The notes under the pieces are model-generated. The model was not told the DNA's origin, ran no database searches, and worked only from the letters and a program-made list of their open reading frames with translations. Made by a program: the position numbers and the translations under genes. DNA of 64,000 nucleotides from Escherichia coli (GTDB taxonomy: Bacteria > Pseudomonadota > Gammaproteobacteria > Enterobacterales > Enterobacteriaceae). Shown here piece after piece: positions 4,164-62,781 of the stretch (the stretch's first letter is position 1; each line of letters opens with the position of its first letter). The DNA lies in the NCBI RefSeq assembly GCF_003991155.1, contig NZ_CP031293.1; one strand, given 5' to 3'.

Positions 4164-4380
4164 CGTATTTCCTTTCTTAGGGTATAAAGTAGCGGGCAGC
4201 ATATCAGCCACACTTCTTTGGGTAAAACTTTGTCGCGGGAATGATGACAAATCCCGGGGAAAAAGAAACAATAGCAATATCCCGTATGAATATAATAAAG
4301 GCGGGTTTACCACGGACATCATAGCGTTAGCTTATTCATAGGCTATGATTGAGGAACAAGACGCGGAGCAGGAGGAAACC

Positions 4381-5019
4381 ATGCCCGGGCGCTTTGAACT
4401 AAAACCAACCCTGGAGAAAGTCTGGCACGCGCCGGACAATTTTCGCTTCATGGACCCGCTGCCGCCGATGCATCGTCGGGGGATCATTATTGCCGCCATT
4501 GTATTGGTAGTCGGATTTCTGCTTCCATCTGATGATACGCCCAACGCGCCAGTGGTGACGCGTGAAGCGCAGTTAGATATTCAGTCGCAATCACAACCAC
4601 CGACAGAAGAACAGCTGCGGGCGCAATTAGTCACGCCACAAAATGATCCTGATCAGGTGGCTCCGGTCGCTCCAGAACCAATACAGGAAGGCCAGCCAGA
4701 AGAGCAGCCGCAAACCACCCATACGCAACCATTCCAGCCAGATAGCGGAATTGATAATCAATGGCGCTCCTATCGTGTCGAACCCGGTAAAACGATGGCG
4801 CAGCTGTTCCGCGACCACGGACTGCCCGCTACCGATGTCTATGCCATGGCGCAGGTAGAAGGCGCGGGTAAGCCGCTGAGTAATTTGCAAAACGGGCAGA
4901 TGGTGAAAATCCGCCAGAACGCCAGCGGCGTGGTGACGGGCTTAACCATTGATACGGGGAATAATCAACAGGTCCTGTTTACCCGCCAGCCGGATGGCAG
5001 TTTTATTCGTGCGCGGTAG
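4381..5019 (+). CDS. ytfB: Cell division protein YtfB (OapA/LysM-like C-terminal domain)
   Basis: ORF 4345..5019; start set at [23 protein letters not shown] to give 212 aa; Pro/Gln-rich linker then C-terminal OapA-like domain. Confidence 0.8.
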
Positions 5020-5650
5020 ATGAAGGGTCAACCAAAAGCCAGCTAAGGATTGTCTCTTTGATGACCTTACGTCTGGCTTCCAGTGCCTGGGGTGAAACCA
5101 TACTGATGTGATAAACCAGGCCAAGCGTATGCTGGTTGATCAAATAATATCCCCCAAGCGCAGCAATATTAATATTCACCTGCAATGGGTCGATATCTGG
5201 CTTAAAAATATTGTGTTTCTTCCCTTCATCCAATAAGGATTCCATTAACTGCAAGTGCGCATGGTTAATTTCTAAAAGACGCTGTGACTTTGCATAATGC
5301 ACACCCTTACTTTGATTTTCACTATGCACAATTTTTAAAAACCAGGGATTAGAAATATAATAATCCCATGTAAAATCGATTATTTTCTCAATGGCTTTCT
5401 GTGGCGGAAGATCTGAGAAATCAAGGGCCTTTTCTTTTTGTCGAATATCGTTCCAGGTATATTCCAGTACTTCGATAAATAAATTTTCTTTATTACCAAA
5501 GTGGTGATAAACCGTCTGTTTACTGCACCCTGCTGCCTTGACAATATTATCGACTCTGGCCCCTTCGTAACCATATTCGGCAAATTCATTAACCGCGCAT
5601 AACAGCAGCTTTTCTTTCAGGCTCTGTACGTTGCTGGTATCAAGATACAT
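5003..5650 (-). CDS. TetR/AcrR-family transcriptional regulator, divergent from the catabolic operon
   Basis: N-terminal HTH signature ([28 protein letters not shown]) typical of TetR; start set at [11 protein letters not shown] (215 aa); AT-rich coding sequence; 3' end overlaps ytfB by 17 bp (convergent). Possibly the intact counterpart of the K-12 ytfA fragment (from memory, unverified). Confidence 0.8.
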
Positions 5651-5862
5651 AACGCTTCCCCACGACCTCTTCGTGGTGACTATCATAACCTGATTTGATT
5701 TCAGCTTCAGAAAAAAGGGCAAAAACTTGTACTTTCATCAGGTTATCAAATGTCCTGTGATCGCCATCGCATATCAACCAACTAGATGGTTGATCTTTTT
5801 ATCATCCAGTCGCAAGCTAATCATCACCAAGGAAACAAAATTCAAAAAAAGAGAGCTATTGT

Positions 5863-6654
5863 ATGAAATCCACTCGTCCTGTTGCCGTGATTACCGGAGC
5901 CGCTCGTGGTATTGGAAAGGGCTGTGCGCTGGAGCTTGCGCGTGGCGGATTTAATCTGCTGATTAATGATCGTCCGGATGCGGATAGCGTAGAAAAATTA
6001 CATGCCACACAACAAGAATGTCTGGCGGAAGGCGTGGAAGTGATTTGCTTCCCTGCTGATGTGGGCGATCTCTCCCTTCATGAAGAGATGCTCGACGCGG
6101 CGCAAAACCAGTGGGGACGTCTGGACTGTCTACTCAACAACGCAGGCATTTCAGTGAAAAAACGCGGTGACCTCCTCGACCTCGAACCAGACAGCTTCGA
6201 TCAAAACATTGCCATTAACACCCGCGCGCCGTTCTTCCTTGCTCAGGCATTCAGTAAGCGCTTACTGGCACAGCCGAAACCGGAAGCAGAACTGCCGCAC
6301 CGCTCGATTATTTTTGTCAGTTCCATCAACGCCATCATGCTGGCGATGAATCGCGGCGAATATACCATTGCCAAAACTGCCGTCTCCGCCGCAGCTCGTC
6401 TGTTTGCCGCTCGCCTTTGCAATGAACAAATTGGCGTTTATGAAGTGCGCCCTGGTCTCATCAAAACTGATATGACTATTCCGGCAACGGCTTATTACGA
6501 CGAACTGATTGCCAAAGGTCTGGTGCCGTGGGGACGTTGGGGTTATCCGGCTGATATTGCTTCCACTGTCCGCGCGATGGCGGAAGGTAAACTGATTTAC
6601 ACCTGCGGTCAGGCGGTTGCCATCGACGGCGGCTTAAGTATGCCGCGCTTCTGA
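5863..6654 (+). CDS. Short-chain dehydrogenase/reductase (SDR) family oxidoreductase
   Basis: 263-aa ORF with N-terminal TGAARGIGKG Rossmann motif and SDR-like catalytic region; first gene of the operon. Confidence 0.85.
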   Translation: MKSTRPVAVITGAARGIGKGCALELARGGFNLLINDRPDADSVEKLHATQQECLAEGVEVICFPADVGDLSLHEEMLDAAQNQWGRLDCLLNNAGISVKKRGDLLDLEPDSFDQNIAINTRAPFFLAQAFSKRLLAQPKPEAELPHRSIIFVSSINAIMLAMNRGEYTIAKTAVSAAARLFAARLCNEQIGVYEVRPGLIKTDMTIPATAYYDELIAKGLVPWGRWGYPADIASTVRAMAEGKLIYTCGQAVAIDGGLSMPRF

Positions 6655-6663
6655 GGCTGAATC

Positions 6664-7506
6664 ATGAGAGATCTGTTACAACGCCCGGATTTATTCAGTA
6701 TCAATACCGCAACACTGGGCTATAAAACGCCGCTACCCGCCATTATTGATGCCTGCGCCGCACGCGGTATTGGCGCAATTGCCCCCTGGCGCAGGGAGTT
6801 GCAGGGTGAAGATCTCCAGCAAATCGCCCGCCAGCTTGCTGCCAGTAACATAAACGTTTCCGGTTTGTGCCGTAGCACCTACTACACCGCACCGACGCTG
6901 GCGGAGCGCAAACTGGCGATTGACGATAACCGCCGGGCGCTGGACGACGCCGCTGTACTGAACGCTGCCTGTTATATGCAGGTGGTTGGCGGTCTGCCAA
7001 TGGGAACAAAAGATCTGTACGAAGCGCGGGAACAGGTGAAACAAGGGATTCGCCAGTTGCTGCCACATTCGAAAGATGTCGGTGTGCCAATTGCACTGGA
7101 GCCACTGCACCCGATGACTGCTGCCGATCGTTCTTGTCTGTGCACGTTACGTCAGGCGCTGGACTGGTGTGATGAACTCGATCCCGATGGCGAATTTGGC
7201 CTCGGCGTGGCGGTAGATGTCTACCATGTCTGGTGGGATCCGGATCTCGCCAGTCAGATCCTGCGTGCCGGAAAACGCATCCTCGCGTTTCATGTTTCCG
7301 ACTGGTTAGTGCCGACCACCGATCTGGTCAATGACCGTGGAATGCCGGGAGATGGTGTCATCAATATTCCGTCAATTCGTCGGCTGGTTGAAAACGCCGG
7401 ATTTAATGGCGCTATTGAACTGGAAATATTCTCACCGTATTGGTGGCAGCAAGATATTGACAGCACACTGGATATTAGCGTCGATCGCATCGCGCATTAT
7501 TGCTAA
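6664..7506 (+). CDS. Sugar-phosphate isomerase/epimerase-like TIM-barrel protein (xylose isomerase-like fold)
   Basis: 280-aa ORF; resembles the AP-endonuclease-2/xylose-isomerase-like TIM-barrel family (hydroxypyruvate isomerase, dehydroshikimate dehydratase, IolE-like). Family call from memory. Confidence 0.7.
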   Translation: MRDLLQRPDLFSINTATLGYKTPLPAIIDACAARGIGAIAPWRRELQGEDLQQIARQLAASNINVSGLCRSTYYTAPTLAERKLAIDDNRRALDDAAVLNAACYMQVVGGLPMGTKDLYEAREQVKQGIRQLLPHSKDVGVPIALEPLHPMTAADRSCLCTLRQALDWCDELDPDGEFGLGVAVDVYHVWWDPDLASQILRAGKRILAFHVSDWLVPTTDLVNDRGMPGDGVINIPSIRRLVENAGFNGAIELEIFSPYWWQQDIDSTLDISVDRIAHYC

Positions 7507-7515
7507 GGAATAATC

Positions 7516-8292
7516 ATGAGTGACCAACCCGTTCTGTTCAGCAGAGCGGCGGCTTCTTGCCGCCTGACATTGAACCGTGAAGATAAATGTCATGCTATTA
7601 ATGAAGAAATGATCGAATCTCTCGACCATTATTTAAATGAAATTGAAAATGACACGGCATTACGCTTAGTCGAATTAACGGCAACCGGCGATAAATTCTT
7701 TTGTGCGGGCGGCGATATTAAATCGTGGTCGGCCTATTCGCCATTAGATATGGGCAGAAAATGGATTAAACGCGGTAACGAGGTTTTTAATCGCCTGCGC
7801 AATTTACCCCAATTAACGGTTGCAAATCTCAACGGTCATACCATTGGCGGTGGGATTGAACTCGCCTTGTGCTGCGATATTCGTATTGCCCGCCCCGGCG
7901 CGAAATTCTCTAACCCGGAAGTGATGCTCGGCATGGTGCCTGGCTGGATGGGCATTGAACGCGTGCTTAATCAGGTTGGCCCGGTGGTCGGTCGCCAGAT
8001 GCTGATGCTGGGTAAACGCCTGACGGCGCAGGAAGCTCAGGCGGCGAATTTAATTGATGAAGTGGTAGAAAAAGAACAGGTGGAAAGCTGGATGGCGAAT
8101 CAGTTAGCGCAGCTGGAAAAATGCGGTCCGGTGGCGCTCGCACATATCAAGCAACTGATTCTGGCACTGGAAAATAAACATGCTGATTACCCGCACCAGT
8201 TACTGGCTGGATTAATGTCCGCCACTCAGGATTGCCAGCAGGCGACGCGCGCCTTTGCCGAAAAAAGTAGCGTGAGCTTCCAAAATCAATAA
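7516..8292 (+). CDS. Enoyl-CoA hydratase/isomerase (crotonase) family protein
   Basis: 258-aa ORF with crotonase-fold hallmarks (FCAGGDIK, GHTIGGGIELALCCDIRIA oxyanion-hole region). Confidence 0.85.
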   Translation: MSDQPVLFSRAAASCRLTLNREDKCHAINEEMIESLDHYLNEIENDTALRLVELTATGDKFFCAGGDIKSWSAYSPLDMGRKWIKRGNEVFNRLRNLPQLTVANLNGHTIGGGIELALCCDIRIARPGAKFSNPEVMLGMVPGWMGIERVLNQVGPVVGRQMLMLGKRLTAQEAQAANLIDEVVEKEQVESWMANQLAQLEKCGPVALAHIKQLILALENKHADYPHQLLAGLMSATQDCQQATRAFAEKSSVSFQNQ

Positions 8293-8301
8293 GGAAATTG
8301 T

Positions 8302-9843
8302 ATGCGTAAGATAACAACCACCGAGACACTGGCGGCGCAAATTCAGGACGGCGCAACCATTGCCATTAGCGGTAATGGCGGCGGAATGGTGGAAGCGGAC
8401 CATATTCTGGCTGCTATTGAAGCGCGTTTCCTGCAAACCGGACACCCGCGCGATCTGACATTAATCCACTCGCTGGGCATTGGCGATCGCGACTGCAAAG
8501 GCACTAACCGCTTCGCTCATGCAGATATGCTCAAACGCATCATTGCCGGGCACTTTACCTGGTCGCCCAAAATGCAGGCGCTGGTAAAAAATAACACGAT
8601 TGAAGCCTACTGCTTTCCTGGTGGCGTGATTCAGGCACTGCTACGGGAGATCGGCGCCGGACGTCCGGGGCTTTTTACCCACGTTGGGCTGGGATCGTTT
8701 GTTGATCCACGCAATGGCGGCGGTAAGTCGAATGAATGCACGACCGACGACCTGGTAGAACTGATTGAAATCGATGGTGAAACCAAACTTCGTTATCGCC
8801 CTTTCAAAGTGGATTACGCGATTTTGCGTGGCACTTATGCCGATCCACGAGGCAACGTCAGCCTCGAAGAAGAGGCGATTGATATGGATAGCTATTCGAT
8901 GGCGCTGGCAGCACACAACAGCGGCGGCAAAGTGTTCGTACAGGTACGCGATGTGCTGGAAGCTGGCGCGATTGAACCACGCCGGGTCAAATTACCGGGC
9001 ATTCTGGTTGATGGCATCGTTGAACACCGCGAACAACCGCAAACCTATCTTGGCGGTTACGACCTGACCATTAGCGGTCAACATCGCCGTCTGAGTTCTA
9101 ACGACGCTATTGAACTGGTTAGTCATCCAGTACGCCGCCTGATTGCCCGTCGGGCAGCACGCGAACTGGTGGCTGGCGCTTCAACCAACTTTGGCTTTGG
9201 TATTCCTGGCGGTATTCCAGGCGTAGCGCTGCGCGAAGGCGTTCCTTACCAAAGTTTATGGCTGAGCGTCGAGCAAGGTGTACATAACGGCATGATGCTG
9301 GATGATGCGTTCTTCGGCTGCGCCCGCAACGCCGACGCCATTATTCCATCACTCGATCAATTTGAGTTCTACAGTGGCGGAGGGATCGATATCACCTTCC
9401 TCGGCATGGGAGAGATGGATCAGTACGGTAACGTCAACGTCTCCCATCTCAATGGCAATCTGATTGGCCCCGGCGGATTTCTCGAAATTGCGCAAAACGC
9501 CCGTAAAGTGGTGTTCTGCGGCACGTTCGACGCCAAAGGTAGCAAGATCGATGTAACGCCAGATGGCTTGCATATCGCCCAGTCAGGTCAAATCCCTAAA
9601 CTGGTTACCCAGGTGGAAAAAATCACTTTTAGCGCCGCCTACGCACAGCAAAGCGGTCAGGAAGTGTTGTATATCACTGAACGTGCAGTATTCCAGTTAA
9701 CGGCAGAAGGCGTTGAATTAATTGAAATCGCACCGGGTGTGGAGATTGAGCGCGACATTCTGCCGTATATGGCTTTCCGTCCAATTATCAAGCACCCACG
9801 CCTGATGGAAAGTAGCCTGTTTACGCCGATGGAGGATGCATGA
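8302..9843 (+). CDS. Family-I CoA-transferase (acyl-CoA:acetate/3-ketoacid CoA-transferase, YdiF/Pct-like, fused subunits)
   Basis: 513-aa ORF; shares conserved blocks with E. coli YdiF and propionate CoA-transferase (FVDPR, YITERAVF, LIEIAPGV) as recalled from memory. Confidence 0.8.
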   Translation: MRKITTTETLAAQIQDGATIAISGNGGGMVEADHILAAIEARFLQTGHPRDLTLIHSLGIGDRDCKGTNRFAHADMLKRIIAGHFTWSPKMQALVKNNTIEAYCFPGGVIQALLREIGAGRPGLFTHVGLGSFVDPRNGGGKSNECTTDDLVELIEIDGETKLRYRPFKVDYAILRGTYADPRGNVSLEEEAIDMDSYSMALAAHNSGGKVFVQVRDVLEAGAIEPRRVKLPGILVDGIVEHREQPQTYLGGYDLTISGQHRRLSSNDAIELVSHPVRRLIARRAARELVAGASTNFGFGIPGGIPGVALREGVPYQSLWLSVEQGVHNGMMLDDAFFGCARNADAIIPSLDQFEFYSGGGIDITFLGMGEMDQYGNVNVSHLNGNLIGPGGFLEIAQNARKVVFCGTFDAKGSKIDVTPDGLHIAQSGQIPKLVTQVEKITFSAAYAQQSGQEVLYITERAVFQLTAEGVELIEIAPGVEIERDILPYMAFRPIIKHPRLMESSLFTPMEDA

Positions 9844-11921
9844 GCCAGCTTGATGACACCCTCCTTGATGCGCTGACACACGTCACTTTCCCAAAGGGTT
9901 TTGTGTCAGCAGAGCCAGCGTCAATTGTCACGGTTGAAGATGTCGATTACCCGATCTGGCAAGTTGATGCGCTAGTCGTTGGTAGCGGCGCAGCAGGATT
10001 ACGTGCGGCAGTTGAACTTAAACGCCGCCAGCAAAATGTGCTGATCGCCACCGCCGGGTTATATATGGGGACATCGGCATGTTCTGGCTCTGATAAACAG
10101 ACGCTGTTTACCGCCGCTACCGCGGGCAACGGCGATAACTTCGCCAAACTGGCGGAAGCACTGGCGAGCGGTGGGGCGATGGATCATGACACCGCTTATG
10201 TCGAAGCGGTAGGTTCTCTGCACACTCTTGGCGGGTTGCAATATCTTGGTCTGGAATTACCGGAAGATCGCTATGGCGCGATTCTTCGTTATCAAACCGA
10301 CCATGACGAAGCCGGGCGTGCAACCTCGTGTGGGCCGCGTACCTCAAGGTTAATGGTGAAAGTGCTGTTGGAAGAAGTACAGCGCCTCGCCATTCCAGTG
10401 TTGACCAGTGCAACAGTGATTAAACTGCTGCATCAGCGTGACGAAAACGGCGAAGACCGTGTGGCGGGGGCAATCCTCGCGACCGGTCATCGCGCCCTTA
10501 ACCCATGGGGGCTGGCAATTGTGACTGCGCCCAATGTGGTACTGGCAACAGGAGGGCCTGGCGAGCTTTATCGCGACAGTGTGTACCCACACAAATGTTT
10601 TGGCTCGCTGGGGCTGGCGCTGGAGGAAGGCCTGACACTAACTAATCTGACCGAAAGCCAGTTTGGTATAGGCACGCCGCGCAGCACGTTTCCGTGGAAT
10701 TTGTCCGGCACCTATGTGCAGGTGATCCCATATATCTATTCCGTGGATGCTGAGGGTAACGAGTATAACTTCCTCGCGGATTACTATCGCACCACCCAGG
10801 AGCTGGCTTCAAACATCTTCCGTAAAGGCTATCAGTGGCCGTTCCACGCCACGCGGGTAATGGATTTTGGCTCCAGCTTGTTAGATATGGCGGTGGCGCA
10901 AGAGCAGCAATCAGGGCGTCAGGTATTTATGGATTTCAATCGTAATCCTGTAGCGGTGCCTGGTGATTTGCCCTTCTCATTAGATCGACTGGACGACGAC
11001 GTTCGCGCGTATCTGGAAAATAACGACGCTCTGGCACCATCGCCCATCGAACGACTGCAACGAATGAATCCGCTGTCTATCTCGCTGTATAAGATGCACG
11101 GTTACGATCTCACCACGCAGCCATTGCAGTTTGCCATGAATAATCAGCACATGAATGGCGGCATTGAAGTCGATATCTGGGGACAAACATCTCTGCCCGG
11201 TTGTTTTGCAGTGGGGGAAGTTGCTGGCACACACGGCGTCACCCGACCTGGCGGCGCGGCGTTGAATGCCGGGCAGGTTTTTGCTGTTCGTCTGGCGCGC
11301 TTTATTGGTTGCACGCAAAAGCGGAATATTGATGGAGATATTGCACAGCTGGCAGCTCCGGCACTGGCTTCTATAAGAGAGATCATTACTCAGGCGCACG
11401 ATAACGGGACCGGGATGCCGTTGTCGATTGTGAGAGAAAAAATTCAGGCACGAATGTCTGACTATGCGGGATTTATTTGCCATGCCGATAAAGTTCGACG
11501 TGCCACTCGTGATGCCCTGCTATTGAGTGAATTTGTCCAACAGCATGGATTGGCAATCAAACATGTGGGCGAAGTTGCCGAGCTGTTTATGTGGCGGCAT
11601 ATGGCACTGACTTCTGCCGCCGTATTAACGCAATTGACGCATTATATTGACGCAGGTGGTGGTAGCCGGGGAGCACGTATTATTCTCGACAGTGATGGAA
11701 ATTCTATTCCGCAAACACGAAATGGTTTTTGTGATGCCTGGCGCTTTCGTTCAGAGCGTACTGAGGATAAAAAAGATAAACTACTTATTCATTATTGCAA
11801 CGGTATCTTTCACGTCAGAGAAACACCTGTTCGTGAGTTTCCTATTATCCGAGGTATTTGGTTTGAAAAAAACTGGCCTGGTTTTCTTAATGGGACAATT
11901 TACCAGCCACAGGATGAATGA
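9840..11921 (+). CDS. FAD-dependent oxidoreductase (fumarate reductase/succinate dehydrogenase flavoprotein-like superfamily), 693 aa
   Basis: Dinucleotide-binding motif VVGSGAAGLRAA near the N-terminus and a second glycine-rich FAD motif (AVGEVAGTHGVTRPGGAALNAG); ATGA overlap with upstream and downstream genes; the last ~90 codons are encoded by AT-rich DNA. Confidence 0.75.
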   Translation: MSQLDDTLLDALTHVTFPKGFVSAEPASIVTVEDVDYPIWQVDALVVGSGAAGLRAAVELKRRQQNVLIATAGLYMGTSACSGSDKQTLFTAATAGNGDNFAKLAEALASGGAMDHDTAYVEAVGSLHTLGGLQYLGLELPEDRYGAILRYQTDHDEAGRATSCGPRTSRLMVKVLLEEVQRLAIPVLTSATVIKLLHQRDENGEDRVAGAILATGHRALNPWGLAIVTAPNVVLATGGPGELYRDSVYPHKCFGSLGLALEEGLTLTNLTESQFGIGTPRSTFPWNLSGTYVQVIPYIYSVDAEGNEYNFLADYYRTTQELASNIFRKGYQWPFHATRVMDFGSSLLDMAVAQEQQSGRQVFMDFNRNPVAVPGDLPFSLDRLDDDVRAYLENNDALAPSPIERLQRMNPLSISLYKMHGYDLTTQPLQFAMNNQHMNGGIEVDIWGQTSLPGCFAVGEVAGTHGVTRPGGAALNAGQVFAVRLARFIGCTQKRNIDGDIAQLAAPALASIREIITQAHDNGTGMPLSIVREKIQARMSDYAGFICHADKVRRATRDALLLSEFVQQHGLAIKHVGEVAELFMWRHMALTSAAVLTQLTHYIDAGGGSRGARIILDSDGNSIPQTRNGFCDAWRFRSERTEDKKDKLLIHYCNGIFHVRETPVREFPIIRGIWFEKNWPGFLNGTIYQPQDE

Positions 11922-12418
11922 TATTGCAAAGGTTAATCACTATGCGAAATATAATTAGATCTATTAATGCTCTACTTGCAGCATTGAACATTACCATTTT
12001 GGCGATCATCGTGGCATGTGTGACGTGGCAGGTGGCTGCACGATTTATATTTACTAGTCCCAGTATTTTTACAGATGAACTCAGCCGTTTGCTCTTTATT
12101 TGTCTTGGACTTTTTGGTGGGGCATACACCGCAGGGCAAAACCGGCATCTGGCGATTGACCTGATACCTATGATGCTGAAAGGAAAAGCCCGACGTCATT
12201 TATTTTTGTGTATTCAGATTATCGTTATTATCTTCGCTACCATCATTATGGTATATGGTGGTGGGCTATTAACGATGGATACATTCGATTCAGGTCAGAC
12301 CTCGCCCGCTTTAGGCTGGCAAATGGGATATATCTATATGAGCATCCCGATGAGTGGTGTACTTATTATTATATACACCATAGATATGGTTTTAACCGAA
12401 CTTAAACAACCACTCTAA
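11918..12418 (+). CDS. TRAP transporter small permease subunit (DctQ-like)
   Basis: 166-aa hydrophobic ORF with about 4 predicted TM segments directly upstream of a DctM-like gene; an alternative start at the internal MRNIIRS is possible. Confidence 0.75.
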   Translation: MILQRLITMRNIIRSINALLAALNITILAIIVACVTWQVAARFIFTSPSIFTDELSRLLFICLGLFGGAYTAGQNRHLAIDLIPMMLKGKARRHLFLCIQIIVIIFATIIMVYGGGLLTMDTFDSGQTSPALGWQMGYIYMSIPMSGVLIIIYTIDMVLTELKQPL

Positions 12419-12460
12419 AGATAACAAACAACAACCAACCATAGTAGGAATGGAGAAATT

Positions 12461-13762
12461 ATGGATTACTGGTTACCGATTATTGTGTTATTTGGTGCCT
12501 TCTTTTTTATGTTGGCATTAGGTGTACCTATTGTTTATGCCATTGGTTTATCGACACTGGCATCAATTTCCACACAACTCGATTTCAACTCAGCATTGAG
12601 TGTGGTTTCCCAAAAGTTAGCCTCCGGGTTAGATAGTTTTACGTTGTTGGCAATCCCATTTTTTATCTTGTCTGGCAACATTATGAATCATGGAGGAATA
12701 GCGCGACGATTAATCAACTTTGCCCGTATTCTCGGCGGTCGTCTGCCAGGCTCACTTGCCCACTGTAATATTCTCGCCAATATGCTGTTCGGGGCAATTT
12801 CTGGTTCAGCCGTGGCTTCGGCGGCTGCGATGGGCGGCGTCATGCATCCGCAACAGGTTAAAGAGGGCTACGACCCGGCATTCAGTACTGCGGTTAACGT
12901 TGCCTCTGCCCCGACGGGTTTGCTTATTCCACCAAGTAATACGTTAATCGTCTATTCACTGGTCAGTGGTGGTACTTCTATTGCCGCACTGTTTCTGGCG
13001 GGTTATGTTCCGGGAATTTTGCTGGGTCTGGCACTGATGGTAATAGCCGGTATTATCGCGGTACGTCGCGGTTATCCAAAGCCAGAACGCCCGACTTTAC
13101 GCCAGGCTGGCGTTGCGATATGGATGGCTATCCCCAGTATTTTCCTGATTATTTTAATTATGGGGGGTGTATTAAGTGGTATTTTTACCCCGACAGAGGC
13201 CTCCGCAATTGCAGTAATTTATACCCTTTTCCTTGCACTGGTTCTTTATCGTGAAATCTCAGTTAAAGATTTACCTAAAATATTTCTGGAATCCGTTATT
13301 ACCACTGCAATTGTCTTGTTATTAATTGGTTCTTCGATGGGAATGTCATGGGCGATGTCAAACGCTGACGTTCCCTTCCTGATTCTCGATTTGCTTAACA
13401 CTATTTCTGACAACCCAATAATAATCCTGCTTATTATCAATATTATCCTGTTGATTATCGGCACTTTTATGGATATGACACCGGCGGTACTGATTTTTAC
13501 GCCGATATTTTTACCGGTTGTCACCGAACTGGGCATGGACCCGATTCACTTTGGTATTGTCATGGTACTGAACATGTGTATCGGTATTTGTACTCCGCCT
13601 GTAGGCAGTGTGTTATTTGTCGGTTGTAGTGTATCTAAATTACCGATTAATAAAATTATCAAACCTATGCTGCCATTTTATGCCGTGATGGTATTGGTGC
13701 TGGCAATGGTGACCTATATTCCGCAAATCAGTATGGCATTGCCAAGAGCACTGGGTTACTGA
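12461..13762 (+). CDS. TRAP transporter large permease subunit (DctM-like)
   Basis: 433-aa polytopic membrane protein with DctM-family features; AT-rich. Confidence 0.88.
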   Translation: MDYWLPIIVLFGAFFFMLALGVPIVYAIGLSTLASISTQLDFNSALSVVSQKLASGLDSFTLLAIPFFILSGNIMNHGGIARRLINFARILGGRLPGSLAHCNILANMLFGAISGSAVASAAAMGGVMHPQQVKEGYDPAFSTAVNVASAPTGLLIPPSNTLIVYSLVSGGTSIAALFLAGYVPGILLGLALMVIAGIIAVRRGYPKPERPTLRQAGVAIWMAIPSIFLIILIMGGVLSGIFTPTEASAIAVIYTLFLALVLYREISVKDLPKIFLESVITTAIVLLLIGSSMGMSWAMSNADVPFLILDLLNTISDNPIIILLIINIILLIIGTFMDMTPAVLIFTPIFLPVVTELGMDPIHFGIVMVLNMCIGICTPPVGSVLFVGCSVSKLPINKIIKPMLPFYAVMVLVLAMVTYIPQISMALPRALGY

Positions 13763-13814
13763 TGCGCATTCACTGGCGGCACCTGCCGCCATATTTATTA
13801 GAAAAGGAACATCT

Positions 13815-14786
13815 ATGAAAATAAAAGTATCCGCTGGCATTATCGGTGCTGTTCTTATGTTATCCGCAAGCCAGTCCTGGGCAGTGACATTAAAACTGAG
13901 TCATAATCAGGATAAGTCTCATCCTGTTCATAAAGCGATGGAGTTCTTTGCGAAAAAGAGCAAAGAGTACTCTAACGGTGATATTACTATTCGTATTTAT
14001 CCAAATGGAACATTGGGTACTCAACGAGAAACAATGGAGCTGATTCGTTCTGGCGCTATTCCACTGGTAAAAACCAACGCGGCAGAAATGGAAGCATTTG
14101 AAAATTCCTATAAATTATTTAGCCTGCCTTATTTGTTCCGCGATCGTGATCATTATTATCAGGTCATGCAGGGCGATATCGGGAGAAAAATCCTCGACTC
14201 AACGAAAAGCAAAGGTTATTTCGGGCTGACTTTTTATGATGGAGGCGCCCGCAGTTTCTACGGCAATAAACCAGTACTGAAACCAGACGATCTCAAAGGC
14301 ATGAAAGTCCGTGTCCAGCCAAGTCCTGGCGCAGTTGAAATGATCAAAGTCATGGGCGGTAACCCGACGCCACTGGATTACGGCGAGTTGTATACAGCCT
14401 TACAGCAGGGTGTGGTCGATATGGCAGAAAACAGCGTGATGGCGCTGACCACCATGCGTCACGGTGAAGTGGCAAAATCCTTCAGCCTTGACGAACACAC
14501 TATGGTTCCCGATGTGGTTCTGATGAGCAATGCTGCGTTTGATAAACTTAGCCCGGAAAATCAGGCAGTTATATTAAAAGCAGCTAAAGAATCAATGAGC
14601 TACATGAAAGACTTGTGGAGCGAGGAAGAGAAACAAGAATTTGCAAAACTGGATAAAATGGGCGTGAAAGTCTACCAGGTAGATAAAGCTCCGTTTATCG
14701 AGAAAGTACAGCCAATGTACGCAAACTTCGCTAAGGACAACCCAGCCCTTGCCCCAATGCTGGCTGATATTCAGGCAGCTAAGTAA
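13815..14786 (+). CDS. TRAP transporter periplasmic solute-binding protein (DctP/YiaO-like)
   Basis: 323-aa ORF with signal peptide (MKIKVSAGIIGAVLMLSASQSWA) and DctP-family sequence; last gene of the operon. Confidence 0.85.
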   Translation: MKIKVSAGIIGAVLMLSASQSWAVTLKLSHNQDKSHPVHKAMEFFAKKSKEYSNGDITIRIYPNGTLGTQRETMELIRSGAIPLVKTNAAEMEAFENSYKLFSLPYLFRDRDHYYQVMQGDIGRKILDSTKSKGYFGLTFYDGGARSFYGNKPVLKPDDLKGMKVRVQPSPGAVEMIKVMGGNPTPLDYGELYTALQQGVVDMAENSVMALTTMRHGEVAKSFSLDEHTMVPDVVLMSNAAFDKLSPENQAVILKAAKESMSYMKDLWSEEEKQEFAKLDKMGVKVYQVDKAPFIEKVQPMYANFAKDNPALAPMLADIQAAK

Positions 14787-14842
14787 TTATCTTCGTAGGG
14801 CTGCTTATTGTGGCCCTTATCGATATCTGCAAGTGCTCGCTA

Positions 14843-14877
14843 CAAAAGCAAAACGCCGACCAATGGTCGGCGTTTTT
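14843..14877. terminator. Bidirectional rho-independent terminator between the TRAP operon (+) and rplI (-)
   Basis: GC hairpin cgccgacc-aat-ggtcggcg flanked by an A-run upstream and a T-run downstream, read directly from the sequence. Confidence 0.6.
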
Positions 14878-15941: not shown

Positions 15942-16355
<414 letters not shown>

Positions 16356-16663
16356 TTATTCAGCCTCCTGTCTGGGTCAGCCGAATCCCGGGGAGGCAAG
16401 GAACGTGTTAAAGGTCGGCTGAAAAATGACGCGTTATAGTACTGACATACCCCGCTAAACTCAAGGGCAGAGCCGAAATAAATCTCCCCTTTCGCAAATA
16501 ACCTCTAAACCGCTGATTTGGAGTTCATCACACTTCATCATGGTGTTTTTTTGAACAACTGCATCAGAAATGGTCACCATCAACTTCTTTATCATTGATT
16601 AAAATTAAATCAGAAGATCATCACAGAGGAGAGCACACAAAGTCAGCCGTCGAGGAGGTATCT

Positions 16664-60972: not shown

Positions 60973-62773
60973 GTGCAAACCTTTCAAGCCGATCTTGCCA
61001 TTGTAGGCGCCGGTGGCGCGGGATTACGTGCTGCAATTGCTGCCGCGCAGGCAAATCCAAATGCAAAAATCGCACTAATCTCAAAAGTATACCCGATGCG
61101 TAGCCATACCGTTGCTGCAGAAGGGGGCTCCGCCGCTGTCGCGCAGGATCATGACAGCTTCGAATATCACTTTCACGATACAGTAGCGGGTGGCGACTGG
61201 TTGTGTGAGCAGGATGTCGTGGATTATTTCGTCCACCACTGCCCAACCGAAATGACCCAACTGGAACTGTGGGGATGCCCATGGAGCCGTCGCCCGGATG
61301 GTAGCGTCAACGTACGTCGCTTCGGCGGCATGAAAATCGAGCGTACCTGGTTCGCCGCCGATAAGACCGGCTTCCATATGCTGCACACGCTGTTCCAGAC
61401 CTCTCTGCAATTCCCGCAGATCCAGCGTTTTGACGAACATTTCGTGCTGGATATTCTGGTTGATGATGGTCATGTTCGCGGCCTGGTAGCAATGAACATG
61501 ATGGAAGGCACGCTGGTGCAGATCCGTGCTAACGCGGTCGTTATGGCTACCGGCGGTGCGGGTCGCGTTTATCGTTACAACACCAACGGCGGCATCGTTA
61601 CCGGTGACGGTATGGGTATGGCGCTAAGCCACGGCGTTCCGCTGCGTGACATGGAATTCGTTCAGTATCACCCAACCGGTCTGCCAGGTTCCGGTATCCT
61701 GATGACAGAAGGCTGCCGCGGTGAAGGTGGTATTCTGGTCAACAAAAATGGCTACCGTTATCTGCAAGATTACGGCATGGGCCCGGAAACTCCGCTGGGC
61801 GAGCCGAAAAACAAATATATGGAACTGGGTCCACGCGACAAAGTTTCTCAGGCCTTCTGGCACGAATGGCGTAAAGGCAACACTATCTCCACGCCGCGTG
61901 GCGATGTGGTTTATCTCGACCTGCGTCACCTCGGCGAGAAAAAACTGCATGAACGTCTGCCGTTCATCTGCGAACTGGCGAAAGCGTACGTTGGCGTCGA
62001 TCCGGTTAAAGAACCGATTCCGGTACGTCCGACCGCGCACTACACCATGGGCGGTATCGAAACCGATCAGAACTGTGAAACCCGCATTAAAGGTCTGTTC
62101 GCCGTGGGTGAATGTTCCTCTGTTGGTCTGCACGGTGCGAACCGTCTGGGCTCCAACTCGCTGGCGGAACTGGTGGTCTTCGGTCGTCTGGCCGGTGAGC
62201 AAGCTATGGAACGCGCATCTACTGCCGGTAATGGCAACGATGCAGCAATCAATGCTCAGGTTGCTGGCGTTGAACAGCGCCTGAAAGATCTGGTTAACCA
62301 GGATGGCGGCGAAAACTGGGCTAAGATCCGCGACGAAATGGGCATGGCCATGGAAGAAGGCTGCGGTATCTACCGTACGCCAGAACTGATGCAGAAAACC
62401 ATCGACAAGCTGGCAGAATTGCAGGAACGCTTCAAGCGCGTGCGCATCACCGACACTTCCAGCGTGTTCAACACCGACCTGCTCTACACCATTGAACTGG
62501 GTCACGGTCTGAACGTTGCTGAATGTATGGCGCACTCCGCAATGGCACGTAAAGAGTCCCGCGGCGCGCACCAGCGTCTGGACGAAGGTTGCACCGAGCG
62601 TGACGACGTCAACTTCCTCAAACACACCCTCGCCTTCCGCGATGCTGATGGCACGACTCGCCTGGAGTACAGCGACGTGAAGATTACTACGCTGCCGCCA
62701 GCTAAACGCGTTTACGGTGGCGAAGCGGATGCAGCCGATAAGGCGGAAGCAGCCAATAAGAAGGAGAAGGCGA

Positions 62774-62781
<8 letters not shown>
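60973..62781 (+). CDS. frdA: Fumarate reductase flavoprotein subunit
   Basis: 602-aa ORF starting at GTG ([29 protein letters not shown]); covalent-FAD His region SHTVAAEGG. Confidence 0.96.

What the first reader, a model, noticed from the sequence alone, without database searches (positions are those of the whole stretch)
5003..14786. Accessory TetR-controlled catabolic operon with CoA-transferase, crotonase, FAD oxidoreductase and TRAP transporter, between ytfB and rplI
Between two core genes sits a 9.8-kb module not present in K-12 as I recall it (K-12 has only yjfZ and the short ytfA here). It is a TetR-family regulator facing an 8-gene operon with tight or overlapping junctions (ATGA overlaps at 9840 and 11918): SDR dehydrogenase, xylose-isomerase-like TIM-barrel enzyme, enoyl-CoA hydratase, YdiF/Pct-like CoA-transferase, a 693-aa FAD oxidoreductase and a TRAP transporter. 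The enzyme set implies uptake of an organic acid by the TRAP system, activation by CoA transfer, then hydration, oxidation or isomerisation of a CoA thioester. That is a complete but unassigned pathway; possible substrates are a hydroaromatic, sugar-derived or branched dicarboxylic acid. This is the strongest candidate for an undescribed metabolic system in the window.
Basis: partly seen in the sequence, partly recalled or inferred. Interest (0 to 1): 0.7.

Follow-up and report, generated by a model that had tools for sequence, protein, structure and literature searches.

The report
Orphan sugar-acid/CoA catabolic operon
The TetR-controlled eight-gene operon between ytfB and rplI is real, intact and under purifying selection in 57% of complete E. 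coli genomes (K-12 has lost it); it probably imports a glucuronate-like acid and degrades it through CoA-thioester steps and an uncharacterised succinate-dehydrogenase-like flavoenzyme, but its substrate is still unknown.

Summary
A TetR gene (5003-5650, -) faces eight tightly packed genes (5863-14786, +): an SDR, an IolI-like TIM barrel, a crotonase, a YdiF-type CoA-transferase, a 693-aa SdhA-like flavoprotein and TRAP DctQ/M/P. It is not an inserted island. Klebsiella and Salmonella carry the same operon at the same site, and K-12 keeps only the TetR tail (ytfA) plus yjfZ. The five enzyme genes are in 3113 of 5426 complete E. coli genomes, 1449 with TRAP and 1674 with an MFS sugar-acid-family transporter. 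The swap junction lies inside the flavoprotein gene. dN/dS is 0.00-0.24.

The same gene order recurs in Rhodocyclaceae. The TRAP binding protein is 52% identical to the D-glucuronate binder STM3169 and keeps 6 of its 7 ligand residues. Relatives of the flavoprotein sit beside sugar dehydrogenases, KDG kinase and Eda-like aldolase, and CoA-transferase plus crotonase is a recurrent optional module.

The flavoprotein lacks the fumarate/aspartate catalytic residues. I found no characterised relative of it and no paper on the operon.

Best reading: catabolism of a hexuronate-like acid with CaiB/CaiD-style CoA cycling. The substrate and reaction order are inferred. Verdict: a real, ordinary-looking but unassigned pathway of moderate interest.

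The parts
5003..5650 (-). TetR/AcrR-family regulator of 215 aa. K-12 ytfA is its C-terminal remnant.
   Evidence: Pfam TetR_N (E 3e-14) and TetR_C_29 (E 6e-30). RefSeq annotation. K-12-type homology ends at 5405, inside the gene. dN/dS 0.01-0.10.
5651..5862 (.). Divergent regulatory region between the TetR gene and the operon.
   Evidence: 212-bp A+T-rich spacer read. No Rfam family matches it.
5773..5794 (.). Candidate TetR operator, the 22-bp palindrome ATCAACCAACT|AGATGGTTGAT.
   Evidence: Arms of 11 nt, 91% complementary, no spacer. Identical in the MFS allele. Related ACCAAC..GTTGGT palindromes occupy the same spacer in Sodalis ligni (TACCAACTAGTTGGTT) and a Rhodocyclaceae MAG (AACCAACCGGTTAGTT). 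Binding was not tested.
5863..6654 (+). Classical SDR oxidoreductase of 263 aa, probably NAD-dependent.
   Evidence: NCBIfam PRK12745 scores 420 bits against a cutoff of 250, while all FabG and KduD models score below their cutoffs. Motifs TGAARGIG 11-18, NNAG 92-95, Ser153/154, Tyr167-x3-Lys171 and Asp36.
6664..7506 (+). Xylose-isomerase-like TIM-barrel enzyme of 280 aa. It is an SMc04130 orthologue and its nearest characterised relative is the inosose isomerase IolI.
   Evidence: PDB 3QC0/3JU2 at E 9e-86 and 7VPF at E 1e-61. The family profile then hits IolI 1I60 at E 5e-17, followed by ketose 3-epimerases and UlaE; dehydroshikimate dehydratase QuiC1 reaches only E 9e-4. Invariant E146, D185, H188, H210 and E252.
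7516..8292 (+). Crotonase-family enoyl-CoA hydratase/dehydratase of 258 aa.
   Evidence: NCBIfam enoyl-CoA hydratase models at E down to 2e-44, all below equivalog cutoffs. Both catalytic-type Glu residues are present, E115 in GGGIE and E135 in NPE.
8302..9843 (+). Fused family-I CoA-transferase of 513 aa, YdiF/FadX type.
   Evidence: PDB 2AHU (YdiF) at E 5e-114, and Glu324 aligns with the catalytic Glu333 of YdiF. NCBIfam FadX scores 384 bits against a cutoff of 750.
9840..11921 (+). Stand-alone SdhA/FrdA/NadB-like flavoprotein of 693 aa, from an uncharacterised family.
   Evidence: Pfam FAD_binding_2 only. AlphaFold model with pLDDT 89.5; best PDB folds are SdhA/FrdA at 15-19% identity. Arg469 equals FrdA Arg390, but the equivalents of His44, His232, Thr234 and Arg287 are absent. 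424 clusters at E<=1e-30. No named member appears in the AFDB50 top 50.
11681..14843 (.). Allele-specific segment: the last ~80 codons of the FAD gene plus dctQMP. The sister allele has a different FAD tail plus an MFS gene here.
   Evidence: blastn breakpoints at 11680 and 14844. FAD protein identity falls from 94-100% per 50-residue block (residues 51-600; 80% in the first 50) to 44-64% after residue ~612. G+C is 0.42-0.47 here against 0.51-0.55 in the enzyme genes.
11942..12418 (+). TRAP small membrane subunit DctQ. An alternative start at 11918 overlaps the FAD stop codon.
   Evidence: RefSeq start, sequence, weak match to YiaM. 64% identical to the Rhodocyclaceae operon's DctQ.
12461..13762 (+). 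TRAP large membrane subunit DctM of 433 aa.
   Evidence: TIGR00786 scores 458 bits against a cutoff of 268. 85% identical to the Rhodocyclaceae DctM.
13774..13791 (+). G+C-rich hairpin followed by a T-rich run between dctM and dctP. Its function is unknown.
   Evidence: Terminator-like site from the pattern scan only; the number of such sites does not exceed the shuffled expectation.
13815..14786 (+). DctP-type periplasmic binding protein of 323 aa, from the hexuronate-binder group.
   Evidence: TIGR00787 scores 248 bits against a cutoff of 175. The best PDB matches include 4N15, 4N91 and 4MHF, which PMC7660916 reports with bound glucuronate or galacturonate. 52% identical to the STM3169 orthologue, keeping N31, Q32, R146, R166, N206 and D233, with Glu74 replaced by Gln70. 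75-76% identical to the Rhodocyclaceae operon's DctP, which has the same Gln.
14850..14876 (.). Bidirectional terminator hairpin shared by the operon and the convergent rplI.
   Evidence: 12-bp stem with 7 G-C pairs, flanked by A and T runs.

Best explanation
This is a ligand-derepressed catabolic operon for a glucuronate-like polyhydroxy-carboxylate (a hexuronate, hexonate or deoxy derivative).

Shown by sequence:
- A TetR repressor gene faces eight co-directional genes, and a 22-bp palindrome lies in the spacer.
- The DctPQM system has a binding protein whose pocket nearly matches that of a proven D-glucuronate binder. In the sister allele an MFS of the D-galactonate-transporter family replaces it.

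Inferred steps:
1. The acid is taken up.
2. The NAD-type SDR oxidises a hydroxyl to a ketone (or reduces a carbonyl).
3. The IolI-like TIM-barrel enzyme shifts or epimerises the position next to that carbonyl.
4. The YdiF-type CoA-transferase and the crotonase work as a CoA-recycling (de)hydratase. This is how CaiB and CaiD act on carnitine: the thioester acidifies the alpha-proton so that a beta-hydroxyl can be eliminated or added, and the CoA then passes to the next substrate molecule.
5. The SdhA-like flavoprotein saturates or desaturates a C-C bond next to the carboxyl or carbonyl.

The product is probably a 2-keto-3-deoxy-type acid or a beta-ketoacyl-CoA that core enzymes finish (KdgK/Eda, or thiolases). 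The order of steps, the direction of the flavin step and the exact substrate are not known.
For: Operon reality and function:
- ORFs, junctions and terminator.
- dN/dS 0.00-0.24.
- Present in 3113 of 5426 E. coli genomes.
- Syntenic in Klebsiella and Salmonella.
- The same order, SDR-TIM-ECH-CoAT-FAD-DctQM, occurs in two Rhodocyclaceae genomes, and SDR-TIM-(ECH)-CoAT-FAD-MFS in Sodalis.

Regulation: TetR_N and TetR_C_29 domains, with a palindrome whose half-site recurs in Sodalis and Rhodocyclaceae.

Substrate class:
- The binding protein is 52% identical to STM3169 (D-glucuronate, Kd 0.17 uM, PMC7660916) and keeps 6 of its 7 ligand residues.
- The alternative transporter belongs to TIGR00893, the D-galactonate transporter family.
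- The TRAP-for-MFS swap has its junction inside the FAD gene. The donor therefore carried an orthologous operon, and both transporters should serve the same pathway.

Sugar-acid context of flavoprotein relatives at 52-59% identity:
- A Gfo/Idh/MocA (levoglucosan-dehydrogenase-like) gene is adjacent in about 22 loci.
- KdgK follows the FAD gene in about 15 loci.
- LacI regulators and carbohydrate ABC transporters are present.
- More distant relatives in Planctomycetes lie with SDR, Eda-like aldolase and a KdgK-like kinase. A Clostridia locus has a fructuronate-reductase-like gene next to FAD-CoAT-ECH-SDR-CoAT-LacI.

CoAT plus ECH behave as a unit. They co-occur with the FAD gene in at least five separate arrangements: Enterobacteriaceae/Rhodocyclaceae, L017, alpha-proteobacteria L038/L048/L053, Clostridia L088 and Desulfobacterales L075.

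Catalytic residues are present: CoAT Glu324, ECH Glu115 and Glu135, and SDR Ser-Tyr-Lys. The TIM enzyme is nearest to an inosose isomerase and to ketose epimerases.
Against: - I know of no precedent for CoA-thioester catabolism of a hexuronate, and E. coli already has ExuT and the Ashwell pathway.
- One ligand residue of the binding protein differs (Glu to Gln) and identity is only 52%, so the ligand may not be a uronate.
- The Brenneria relative (SDR-TIM-FAD) uses a PcaK-like aromatic-acid MFS.
- The KdgK and Eda links come from operons with different gene sets and a flavoprotein only 36-59% identical.
- The flavoprotein lacks the proton-donor Arg and the His/Thr of FrdA. It has no adjacent electron-transfer partner, so its reaction is a guess.
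- The operon has no lyase, aldolase or thiolase.
- The enzyme order is inferred from family chemistry only.
- Co-transcription and repression were not tested.
Confidence: 0.4

Rival explanations
1. Hydroaromatic acid pathway. The substrate is quinate, shikimate or a related hydroxylated cyclohexane-carboxylate, which is the carbocyclic look-alike of a pyranuronate. The SDR makes the 3-dehydro compound. The TIM enzyme dehydrates or isomerises it. The flavoprotein reduces or introduces the ring double bond conjugated to the carboxylate. The CoA-transferase and crotonase then carry out Bad/Ali-like steps on the ring thioester. The overall role would be either an electron sink or aromatisation.
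For: - The Brenneria relative pairs SDR-TIM-FAD with a PcaK/aromatic-acid-family MFS: NF053517 at 369 bits and TIGR00895 at 349 bits, both below their cutoffs.
- Hosts include plant- and wood-associated genera (Brenneria, Sodalis ligni) and gut bacteria.
- The beta-proteobacterial operon L017 adds MaoC, an acyl-CoA dehydrogenase and EtfAB. The dehydrogenase's hits include cyclohexane-1-carbonyl-CoA dehydrogenase at 303 bits against a cutoff of 650.
- PF01261 TIM barrels include dehydroshikimate dehydratases, and IolI acts on cyclitols.
- From my own knowledge, not tested here: K-12 ydiF lies beside ydiB-aroD, the genes for the first two quinate/shikimate steps.
Against: - The TIM profile matches the dehydroshikimate dehydratase QuiC1 only at E 9e-4, against 5e-17 for IolI.
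- No AroE/YdiB-type dehydrogenase, dehydroquinase or pca gene turned up in any ORF that was annotated, though only a subset of ORFs in a few loci was scanned.
- Many relatives sit with KdgK, Eda-like aldolase, LacI and carbohydrate ABC transporters.
- The binding protein keeps the residues of a glucuronate binder.
Confidence: 0.2
2. Short hydroxy-acid or keto-acid pathway of the acrylate or beta-oxidation type, with an unrelated transporter. The enzymes would handle a small 3-hydroxy, 3-keto or unsaturated acid such as 3-hydroxypropionate, 3-hydroxybutyrate/acetoacetate or a C5-C6 analogue. The route would be CoA transfer, dehydration, flavin-dependent enoyl reduction or acyl dehydrogenation, and SDR oxidation, possibly serving as an anaerobic electron sink like the cai system. 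On this view the transporter's resemblance to a hexuronate binder says little about the pathway.
For: - The CoA-transferase is closest to YdiF and FadX, which are short-chain acyl-CoA:acetate/3-ketoacid enzymes.
- The crotonase is closest to short-chain enoyl-CoA hydratases.
- L017 carries an AcrC-like acyl-CoA dehydrogenase (360 bits) together with AcrA/B-like Etf subunits.
- The flavoprotein family occurs in strict anaerobes.
- G+C differs between the enzyme genes and the TRAP genes.
Against: - The TRAP genes travel with the same enzyme set in Rhodocyclaceae (DctP 75% identical).
- The allele swap recombined inside the FAD gene, which ties transporter and enzymes together.
- This reading does not explain the conserved IolI-like TIM enzyme.
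- It also does not explain the sugar-type neighbours of the flavoprotein where no CoA enzymes are present.
Confidence: 0.15
3. Decaying remnant with no present function. On this view the locus is on its way out of E. coli, as in K-12, and the intact reading frames are a historical accident.
For: - 43% of complete genomes have lost the enzymes.
- Rare degraded alleles exist, for example one with IS1, a truncated TIM gene and an MFS pseudogene.
- 207-aa TIM fragments occur in E. coli and Shigella.
Against: - dN/dS is 0.00-0.24 for all six genes in four comparisons, with dS up to 0.7 and no stop codons.
- 3113 of the 3152 genomes with any match hold at least 80% of the enzyme block.
- The operon is retained at the same site across three genera.
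- A transporter replacement preserved the reading frame of the FAD gene.
Confidence: 0.03

Closest known systems
E. coli carnitine system (CaiT, CaiB CoA-transferase, CaiD crotonase, CaiA flavin reductase)
   Same: The logic matches. A transporter brings in a hydroxy acid, a CoA-transferase recycles CoA, a crotonase dehydrates the thioester, and a flavoenzyme acts on the resulting double bond. This comparison rests on my own knowledge of the cai system.
   Different: - CaiB is a family-III transferase, whereas this one is family I with Glu324.
- CaiA is an acyl-CoA dehydrogenase fold, whereas this flavoprotein has the SdhA fold.
- The cai system has no SDR, TIM-barrel enzyme or TRAP system.
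- The likely substrate here is polyhydroxylated.
Hexuronate (Ashwell) and KduI/KduD routes to 2-keto-3-deoxygluconate
   Same: Both involve uptake of a hexuronate-type acid. An isomerase and an NAD(P) oxidoreductase are present. Relatives' operons end with KdgK and an Eda-like aldolase.
   Different: No UxaC, UxuA/B, UxaA/B or KduI homologue is present, and no NCBIfam model for them reaches its cutoff. The known routes need neither CoA nor a flavoprotein.
STM3169-3171 hexuronate TRAP transporter of Salmonella Typhimurium (PMC7660916)
   Same: It is a DctPQM architecture. The binding protein is 52% identical, and both carboxylate-binding Arg residues plus 4 of 5 further ligand residues are conserved.
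   Different: STM3169-71 stands alone between ygiQ and ftsP with no catabolic genes. Here Glu74 is replaced by Gln70 and the transporter is embedded in an enzyme operon.
Acyl-CoA route for 2-deoxy-D-ribonate in Klebsiella michiganensis (Price et al. 2019, PMC6365646)
   Same: It sets the precedent that a sugar acid can be catabolised as a CoA thioester by beta-oxidation-like steps. MFS sugar-acid transporters sit in that cluster as well.
   Different: The genes are different: a CoA synthetase, a beta-hydroxyacyl-CoA dehydrogenase, a thiolase and glycerate kinase. That cluster has no TIM barrel, crotonase or SdhA-like flavoprotein and lies at another locus.
SMc04130 of Sinorhizobium meliloti (PDB 3QC0/3JU2) and B. 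subtilis IolI (1I60)
   Same: The TIM-barrel enzyme is an orthologue-level match to SMc04130 (E 9e-86). IolI is its nearest characterised relative.
   Different: The PDB molecule names for SMc04130 give no specific function ('sugar isomerase', 'uncharacterized protein'). IolI is only a remote match (E 5e-17 with the family profile), so its inosose isomerase activity cannot be transferred.
FrdA/SdhA/NadB flavoproteins
   Same: It shares the FAD_binding_2 domain and the four-domain fold (TM 0.7-0.8 relative to the target). Arg469 corresponds to FrdA Arg390, and a His lies next to the His355 position.
   Different: - No covalent-FAD His.
- No His232/Thr234.
- No proton-shuttle Arg287.
- No adjacent Fe-S or membrane-anchor genes.
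- Only 15-22% identity.

Membership tests
TetR/AcrR-family repressor with a divergent target operon | N-terminal TetR_N helix-turn-helix plus a C-terminal ligand-binding domain | tested here: met
   PF00440 at E 3e-14 (residues 19-61) and PF17938 TetR_C_29 at E 6e-30 (residues 83-201).
TetR/AcrR-family repressor with a divergent target operon | Binds a palindromic operator in the spacer and is released by a small ligand | not testable with these tools
   A 22-bp palindrome at 5773-5794 has a related half-site in Sodalis and Rhodocyclaceae. Binding and the inducer are unknown.
DctP-type TRAP transporter | Three components, DctP, DctQ and DctM, encoded together | tested here: met
   TIGR00787 at 248 bits (cutoff 175), TIGR00786 at 458 bits (cutoff 268), and a DctQ-like small subunit. 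RefSeq gives the same names.
DctP-type TRAP transporter | Conserved Arg in the binding protein that holds the ligand's carboxylate | tested here: met
   Arg166 aligns with Arg170 of STM3169, and Arg146 with Arg150. Their roles are described in PMC7660916.
Hexuronate-specific TRAP binding proteins (STM3169, Apre_1383, Bamb_6123 group) | The full set of glucuronate-contacting residues (Asn35, Gln36, Glu74, Arg150, Arg170, Asn210, Asp237 in STM3169) | tested here: inconclusive
   Six of seven are conserved. Glu74 is replaced by Gln70, and the Rhodocyclaceae orthologues have the same replacement. Ligand binding was not measured.
Family-I CoA-transferase (YdiF type) | Fused alpha/beta domains with the catalytic glutamate that forms the enzyme-CoA thioester | tested here: met
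   Aligned over residues 11-508 to YdiF 2AHU (E 5e-114). Glu324 aligns with Glu333. The assignment of Glu333 as the catalytic residue is from my own knowledge.
S. aureus FadX equivalog | Score above the curated cutoff | tested here: not met
   NF052271 scores 384 bits against a cutoff of 750.
Crotonase-type enoyl-CoA hydratase | ECH fold with two catalytic glutamates and oxyanion-hole motifs | tested here: met
   Hydratase models at E down to 2e-44. Glu115 (GGGIE), Glu135 (NPE) and CAGGD 63-67. Equating these with rat ECH Glu144 and Glu164 is from my own knowledge.
FabG 3-oxoacyl-ACP reductase (the RefSeq product name) | Score above the FabG equivalog cutoffs | tested here: not met
   TIGR01830 scores 126 against 298, and NF004198 scores 114 against 296. 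Only the provisional PRK12745 model passes, at 420 against 250. The protein is a classical SDR (motifs) but nothing supports an ACP substrate.
IolI inosose isomerase / ketose 3-epimerase group of PF01261 TIM barrels | Close sequence relationship and shared metal ligands | tested here: inconclusive
   Profile against 1I60 gives E 5e-17 over the full length. Invariant E146, D185, H210 and E252 form a pattern typical of the fold. This is too remote to transfer the activity.
3-Dehydroshikimate dehydratase (AsbF/QuiC) | Detectable specific similarity | tested here: not met
   QuiC1 5HMQ reaches only E 9e-4 with the family profile, and AsbF was not found.
Fumarate reductase / succinate dehydrogenase / L-aspartate oxidase | FAD_binding_2 domain and the four-domain fold | tested here: met
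   PF00890 at E 9e-28. Foldseek hits to SdhA/FrdA at E 1e-29 with TM 0.72-0.81 by target length.
Fumarate reductase / succinate dehydrogenase / L-aspartate oxidase | Substrate and catalytic residues (FrdA His232, Thr234, Arg287, His355, Arg390) and, for Sdh/Frd, the covalent-FAD His44 | tested here: not met
   In alignment with the E. coli FrdA encoded in this window, only Arg390 (Arg469 here) is kept. His355 aligns with Gln436, with His437 one position later. His232 becomes Phe and Thr234 becomes Trp. The Arg287 region reads GSSL, and His44 becomes Ala80. All equivalog scores are far below their cutoffs.
Fumarate reductase / succinate dehydrogenase / L-aspartate oxidase | Adjacent Fe-S subunit and membrane anchor (Sdh/Frd) | tested here: not met
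   None is present in this operon or in any of the 80+ related loci screened with the query panel.
Ashwell hexuronate pathway | UxaC isomerase, UxuB/UxaB reductase and UxuA/UxaA dehydratase homologues | tested here: not met
   No operon protein matches those NCBIfam models within the listed hits (for the SDR and the crotonase only the best 25 hits were shown). A fructuronate-reductase-like gene appears only in the distant Clostridia locus L088.

The most novel reading that the evidence does not exclude
E. coli and many other bacteria possess a previously undescribed route for a hexuronate-like sugar acid. In it a CoA-transferase/crotonase pair replaces the metal-dependent sugar-acid dehydratases. 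A new family of stand-alone SdhA-like flavoenzymes, with more than 400 clusters at 50% identity spanning gut anaerobes to Planctomycetes, performs a C-C (de)saturation on a sugar- or cyclitol-derived intermediate.
Probability: 0.25. Interest if true: 0.75.

Novelty: new variant of a known kind. Interest (0 to 1): 0.55.

Why it matters
More than half of complete E. coli genomes carry this intact, selected operon, as do Klebsiella oxytoca-group and some Salmonella genomes. A laboratory strain with a genome of about 4.56 Mb carries it too. Because K-12 lost the operon, it has escaped the classical genetics of E. coli.

Assigning its substrate would add a nutrient niche that separates E. coli lineages in the gut. 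It would also give a first function to a large SdhA-like flavoprotein family and to the SMc04130 structural-genomics family. It would test whether sugar acids can be degraded through CoA thioesters.

The two interchangeable transporters and the candidate TetR operator make the question directly testable.

Tried and rejected
1. The Klebsiella michiganensis deoxyribonate acyl-CoA pathway looked like a match. Its genes are a CoA synthetase, a hydroxyacyl-CoA dehydrogenase, a thiolase and glycerate kinase at another locus, so it is rejected.
2. Reading the flavoprotein as a fumarate reductase, succinate dehydrogenase or aspartate oxidase is rejected on catalytic residues and the absence of partner subunits.
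3. Reading the TIM barrel as a dehydroshikimate dehydratase is rejected on similarity.
4. An inserted genomic island or mobile element is rejected. No integrase or insertion sequence lies in the window segment, the site is the same in three genera, and the 'plasmid' matches to the TRAP genes at 99% are records of 0.37-4.8 Mb, so they look like chromosomal sequence filed under plasmids.
5. A riboswitch or known RNA element in the spacers is not found. Only the RpsF leader at 16335-16419 appears.
6. Literature searches found nothing on this operon. The terms tried were ytfA/yjfZ, SMc04130/3QC0/3JU2/7VPF, quinate/shikimate/dihydroshikimate, and combinations of the product names. The Vetting et al. 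2015 binding-protein paper (PMC4310620) is not held, so the ligands of 4OVR, 4X8R and 4N8Y rest on my memory only.
7. The promoter scan gave no more sites than shuffled sequence, so no promoter is claimed.
8. My own ORF calling on high-G+C loci produced antisense artefacts. A tblastn panel replaced it.

Full report
**1. The observation**

The window is identical to E. coli 2016C-3878, where RefSeq annotates the same nine genes.

The TetR gene starts at the ATG at 5650 (215 aa). DctQ may start at 11918 (overlapping the FAD stop codon) or at 11942.

Three consecutive junctions are 9-nt spacers, each with a ribosome-binding site. CoAT and FAD overlap by ATGA. The only strong hairpin-plus-T-run lies after dctP, at 14850-14876, and is shared with the convergent rplI. 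No known RNA family lies in the spacers.

**2. Family assignments**

- **SDR.** It has the classical motifs. It passes only the provisional PRK12745 model, not the FabG or KduD models.
- **TIM barrel.** It is an orthologue-level match to the structural-genomics protein SMc04130 (3QC0/3JU2, E 9e-86). With a family profile, its nearest characterised relative is the inosose isomerase IolI (E 5e-17), followed by ketose 3-epimerases and UlaE. Dehydroshikimate dehydratase is barely detectable.
- **Crotonase.** Both glutamates are present.
- **CoA-transferase.** It matches YdiF at E 5e-114, and the catalytic Glu is conserved.
- **TRAP subunits.** They pass the curated cutoffs.
- **693-aa flavoprotein.** It has only a FAD_binding_2 Pfam domain. 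A confident model (pLDDT 89.5) has the SdhA/FrdA fold.

I aligned the flavoprotein with the FrdA encoded at 60973-62781 of this same window. It keeps Arg390 (Arg469 here) and has a His one position after the His355 site. It lacks the covalent-FAD His, His232, Thr234 and the proton-shuttle Arg287. It is therefore not a fumarate reductase, succinate dehydrogenase or aspartate oxidase.

The flavoprotein family is large: 3241 representatives at E<=1e-3 and 424 at E<=1e-30. I found no characterised member in the PDB or among the AFDB50 neighbours.

**3. Distribution and history in E. coli**

The flanks occur in 5425 of 5426 complete genomes. The locus exists in three main forms:

| Form | Genomes |
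|---|---|
| Five enzyme genes present (>=80% coverage) | 3113 |
| ...with the TRAP genes, as in this window | 1449 |
| ...with a 425-aa MFS of the D-galactonate-transporter family | 1674 |
| K-12-type: 5'-truncated TetR pseudogene (ytfA) plus yjfZ | the remainder |

For the K-12 type, homology to the window ends at 5405 and resumes at 14845.

The TRAP and MFS alleles are 94-100% identical in protein until FAD residue ~612, then only about 55% identical. The DNA breakpoints are at 11680 and 14844. The G+C content drops in the replaced segment.

Klebsiella oxytoca and Salmonella enterica carry TetR|SDR-TIM-ECH-CoAT-FAD-MFS at the same ytfB-rplI position. A published survey reports ytfA in all E. 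albertii and E. fergusonii strains tested and in only some E. coli (PMC6790063).

I conclude that the MFS form is the ancestral enterobacterial locus. K-12-like lineages lost it. The TRAP form of this window arose by homologous replacement from a donor that had an orthologous FAD-TRAP operon, which ties the transporter to the enzymes.

All six non-transporter genes are under purifying selection (dN/dS 0.00-0.24, dS up to 0.7, no stop codons). Rare degraded alleles do exist.

**4. Relatives elsewhere**

A scan of one genome per species found at least 590 relatives of the flavoprotein, and 80 loci were kept. I screened the contexts by ORF clustering, NCBIfam scans and a tblastn panel.

Loci with the full enzyme set:
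- Two Rhodocyclaceae genomes have TetR | MaoC-SDR-TIM-ECH-CoAT-FAD-DctQ-DctM, with dctP alongside.
- Sodalis ligni has TetR | SDR-TIM-(ECH)-CoAT-FAD-MFS-flavodoxin.

Loci that lack the CoA genes:
- Brenneria has TetR|SDR-TIM-FAD plus a PcaK-like MFS.
- Pseudescherichia, Phytobacter and Mangrovibacter have TetR|SDR-Gfo/Idh/MocA-TIM-MFS-FAD.
- Lentisphaeria, Opitutae and a beta-proteobacterium have Gfo-TIM-SDR-FAD.
- Gut metagenome contigs have TetR-SDR-FAD-TIM-DctPQM.

Alpha-proteobacterial loci:
- About twenty carry a carbohydrate ABC transporter, two GMC oxidoreductases, a Dabb protein, LacI, a levoglucosan-dehydrogenase-like Gfo protein, FAD and KdgK.
- In three of them (L038, L048, L053) CoAT plus ECH stand where the GMC/Dabb genes are otherwise found.

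More distant family members (36-41% identical):
- In Planctomycetes they lie in OYE/GltD-SDR-Eda-like aldolase-FAD-KdgK-like clusters.
- A Clostridia locus has a fructuronate-reductase-like gene followed by FAD-CoAT-ECH-SDR-CoAT-LacI.
- A Desulfobacterales locus adds MaoC, acyl-CoA dehydrogenases and a Zn-dependent sugar-type dehydrogenase.

Two points follow. First, the constant companions of the flavoprotein are sugar-type dehydrogenases and the IolI-like TIM enzyme, often with enzymes of the 2-keto-3-deoxygluconate end-route. Second, CoAT plus ECH form a recurrent, optional two-gene module.

**5. The transporter as a clue**

The binding protein's best solved relatives (E 1e-72 to 1e-56) include 4N15, 4N91 and 4MHF, which PMC7660916 describes as glucuronate or galacturonate binders. 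I recovered the Salmonella STM3169 orthologue, which binds D-glucuronate with a Kd of 0.17 uM according to that paper.

The window protein is 52% identical to it. It keeps Asn35, Gln36, Arg150, Arg170, Asn210 and Asp237, and replaces Glu74 with Gln70.

The Rhodocyclaceae operons carry a DctP that is 75-76% identical and has the same Gln. This looks like a distinct specificity subgroup that travels with this enzyme set.

The alternative MFS is of the anionic sugar-acid family. The evidence therefore points to a carboxylate with several hydroxyls on a six-membered ring or an equivalent chain.

**6. How it most likely works**

Sequence evidence supports a TetR-controlled operon. There is a 22-bp palindrome at 5773-5794, and its ACCAAC/GTTGGT half-site recurs in Sodalis and Rhodocyclaceae. 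Sequence also supports uptake of a glucuronate-like acid.

The following steps are inferred from family chemistry:
1. The SDR interconverts a hydroxyl and a ketone.
2. The TIM enzyme isomerises or epimerises next to that carbonyl.
3. CoAT plus ECH act as a CoA-recycling (de)hydratase in the manner of CaiB/CaiD.
4. The flavoprotein makes or removes a double bond next to a carboxyl or carbonyl.
5. The product enters core metabolism through KdgK/Eda or thiolases.

I put 0.9 on 'functional regulated catabolic operon'. I put about 0.5 on 'sugar-acid-like substrate' and about 0.3 on the step assignments, which gives 0.4 overall.

The main rival is a hydroaromatic acid such as quinate or shikimate (0.2). 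The Brenneria aromatic-acid-type MFS and the plant-associated hosts favour it. The weak similarity to dehydroshikimate dehydratase and the KdgK/Eda/LacI contexts count against it.

A short-chain hydroxy-acid or acrylate-type pathway with an unrelated transporter gets 0.15. It does not explain the TIM enzyme or the in-gene recombination junction. Decay without function is contradicted by the selection data.

**7. Comparison with what is known**

In logic the operon resembles the cai system and, at the level of substrate class, the hexuronate routes. It belongs to neither: the CoA-transferase family, the flavoprotein fold and the lack of any Uxa/Uxu/Kdu homologue all differ.

The Klebsiella michiganensis acyl-CoA route for deoxyribonate is a conceptual precedent built from other genes.

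I found no paper or curated model that assigns this operon. The library searched is incomplete, however, so a description in a subscription journal cannot be excluded.

**8. Verdict**

This is a real, conserved, unassigned pathway built from familiar enzyme families plus one uncharacterised flavoprotein family. I rate it a new variant of a known kind, with interest 0.55. The decisive experiments are straightforward: a ligand screen of the binding protein, an inducer screen with the TetR operator, and deletion or complementation using a laboratory strain that carries the MFS allele.

Noticed in passing
Not in this window. Locus L003:2878-3672 (yjfZ) occupies the place of window 5406-14844.: yjfZ was proposed as an E. 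coli/Shigella 'conserved signature' qPCR target (PMC11057252). It is present in only 2524-2539 of 5426 complete E. coli genomes. It is missing from the ytfB-rplI locus of genomes like this one, where the ancestral operon is intact. A yjfZ assay would therefore miss about half of E. coli.
   Followed up: partly
window 8302-11921 (CoAT and FAD, ATGA overlap at 9840-9843): A few E. coli assemblies encode a single CoAT-FAD fusion protein: P0003 (1078 aa), P0035 and P0080, carrying PF01144 plus PF00890. A one-base change at the overlap would fuse the genes. I did not check whether these fusions are real or sequencing errors.
   Followed up: no
L094 (E. coli 23AR1101); also proteins P0308-P0320: A rare degraded allele holds a divergent TetR and SDR (about 87% nt identity), a truncated TIM gene, IS1 and a frameshifted MFS gene. 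207-aa TIM fragments, 71% identical to the window protein, recur in E. coli and Shigella.
   Followed up: partly
L002:10626-12387, and rows H20-H29: The space between the transporter gene and rplI is a hot spot. Many MFS alleles carry a hipBA-like toxin-antitoxin pair there (hipA is frameshifted in L002) or yjfZ. O157-type and other K-12-like alleles carry IS609 tnpA/tnpB. All variants share the right-hand junction at about window 14844.
   Followed up: partly
window 5003-5019: ytfB (4345-5019, +) and the TetR gene (5003-5650, -) overlap tail to tail by 17 nt, so the two convergent genes share their 3' ends.
   Followed up: no
window 13774-13791: A G+C-rich hairpin followed by a T-rich run sits between dctM and dctP. 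It might modulate the ratio of binding protein to membrane subunits. It comes from a pattern scan only.
   Followed up: no
window 16335-16419 (-): The RpsF leader (RF02893, 110 bits) lies upstream of rpsF-priB-rpsR-rplI, as expected.
   Followed up: yes
L038, L048, L053 compared with about 20 other alpha-proteobacterial loci: In otherwise equivalent ABC-Gfo-FAD-KdgK clusters, CoA-transferase plus crotonase occupy the place of two GMC oxidoreductases plus a Dabb protein. Likewise E. coli has CoAT plus ECH where Pseudescherichia has a 383-aa Gfo/Idh/MocA gene. It is unexplained why a CoA-dependent pair and flavin or NAD oxidoreductases should be interchangeable.
   Followed up: partly
L092:16638-17087 (Sodalis ligni): A flavodoxin gene follows the MFS gene of the Sodalis operon. 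It is a possible electron partner for the flavoprotein. The E. coli operon has no counterpart.
   Followed up: no
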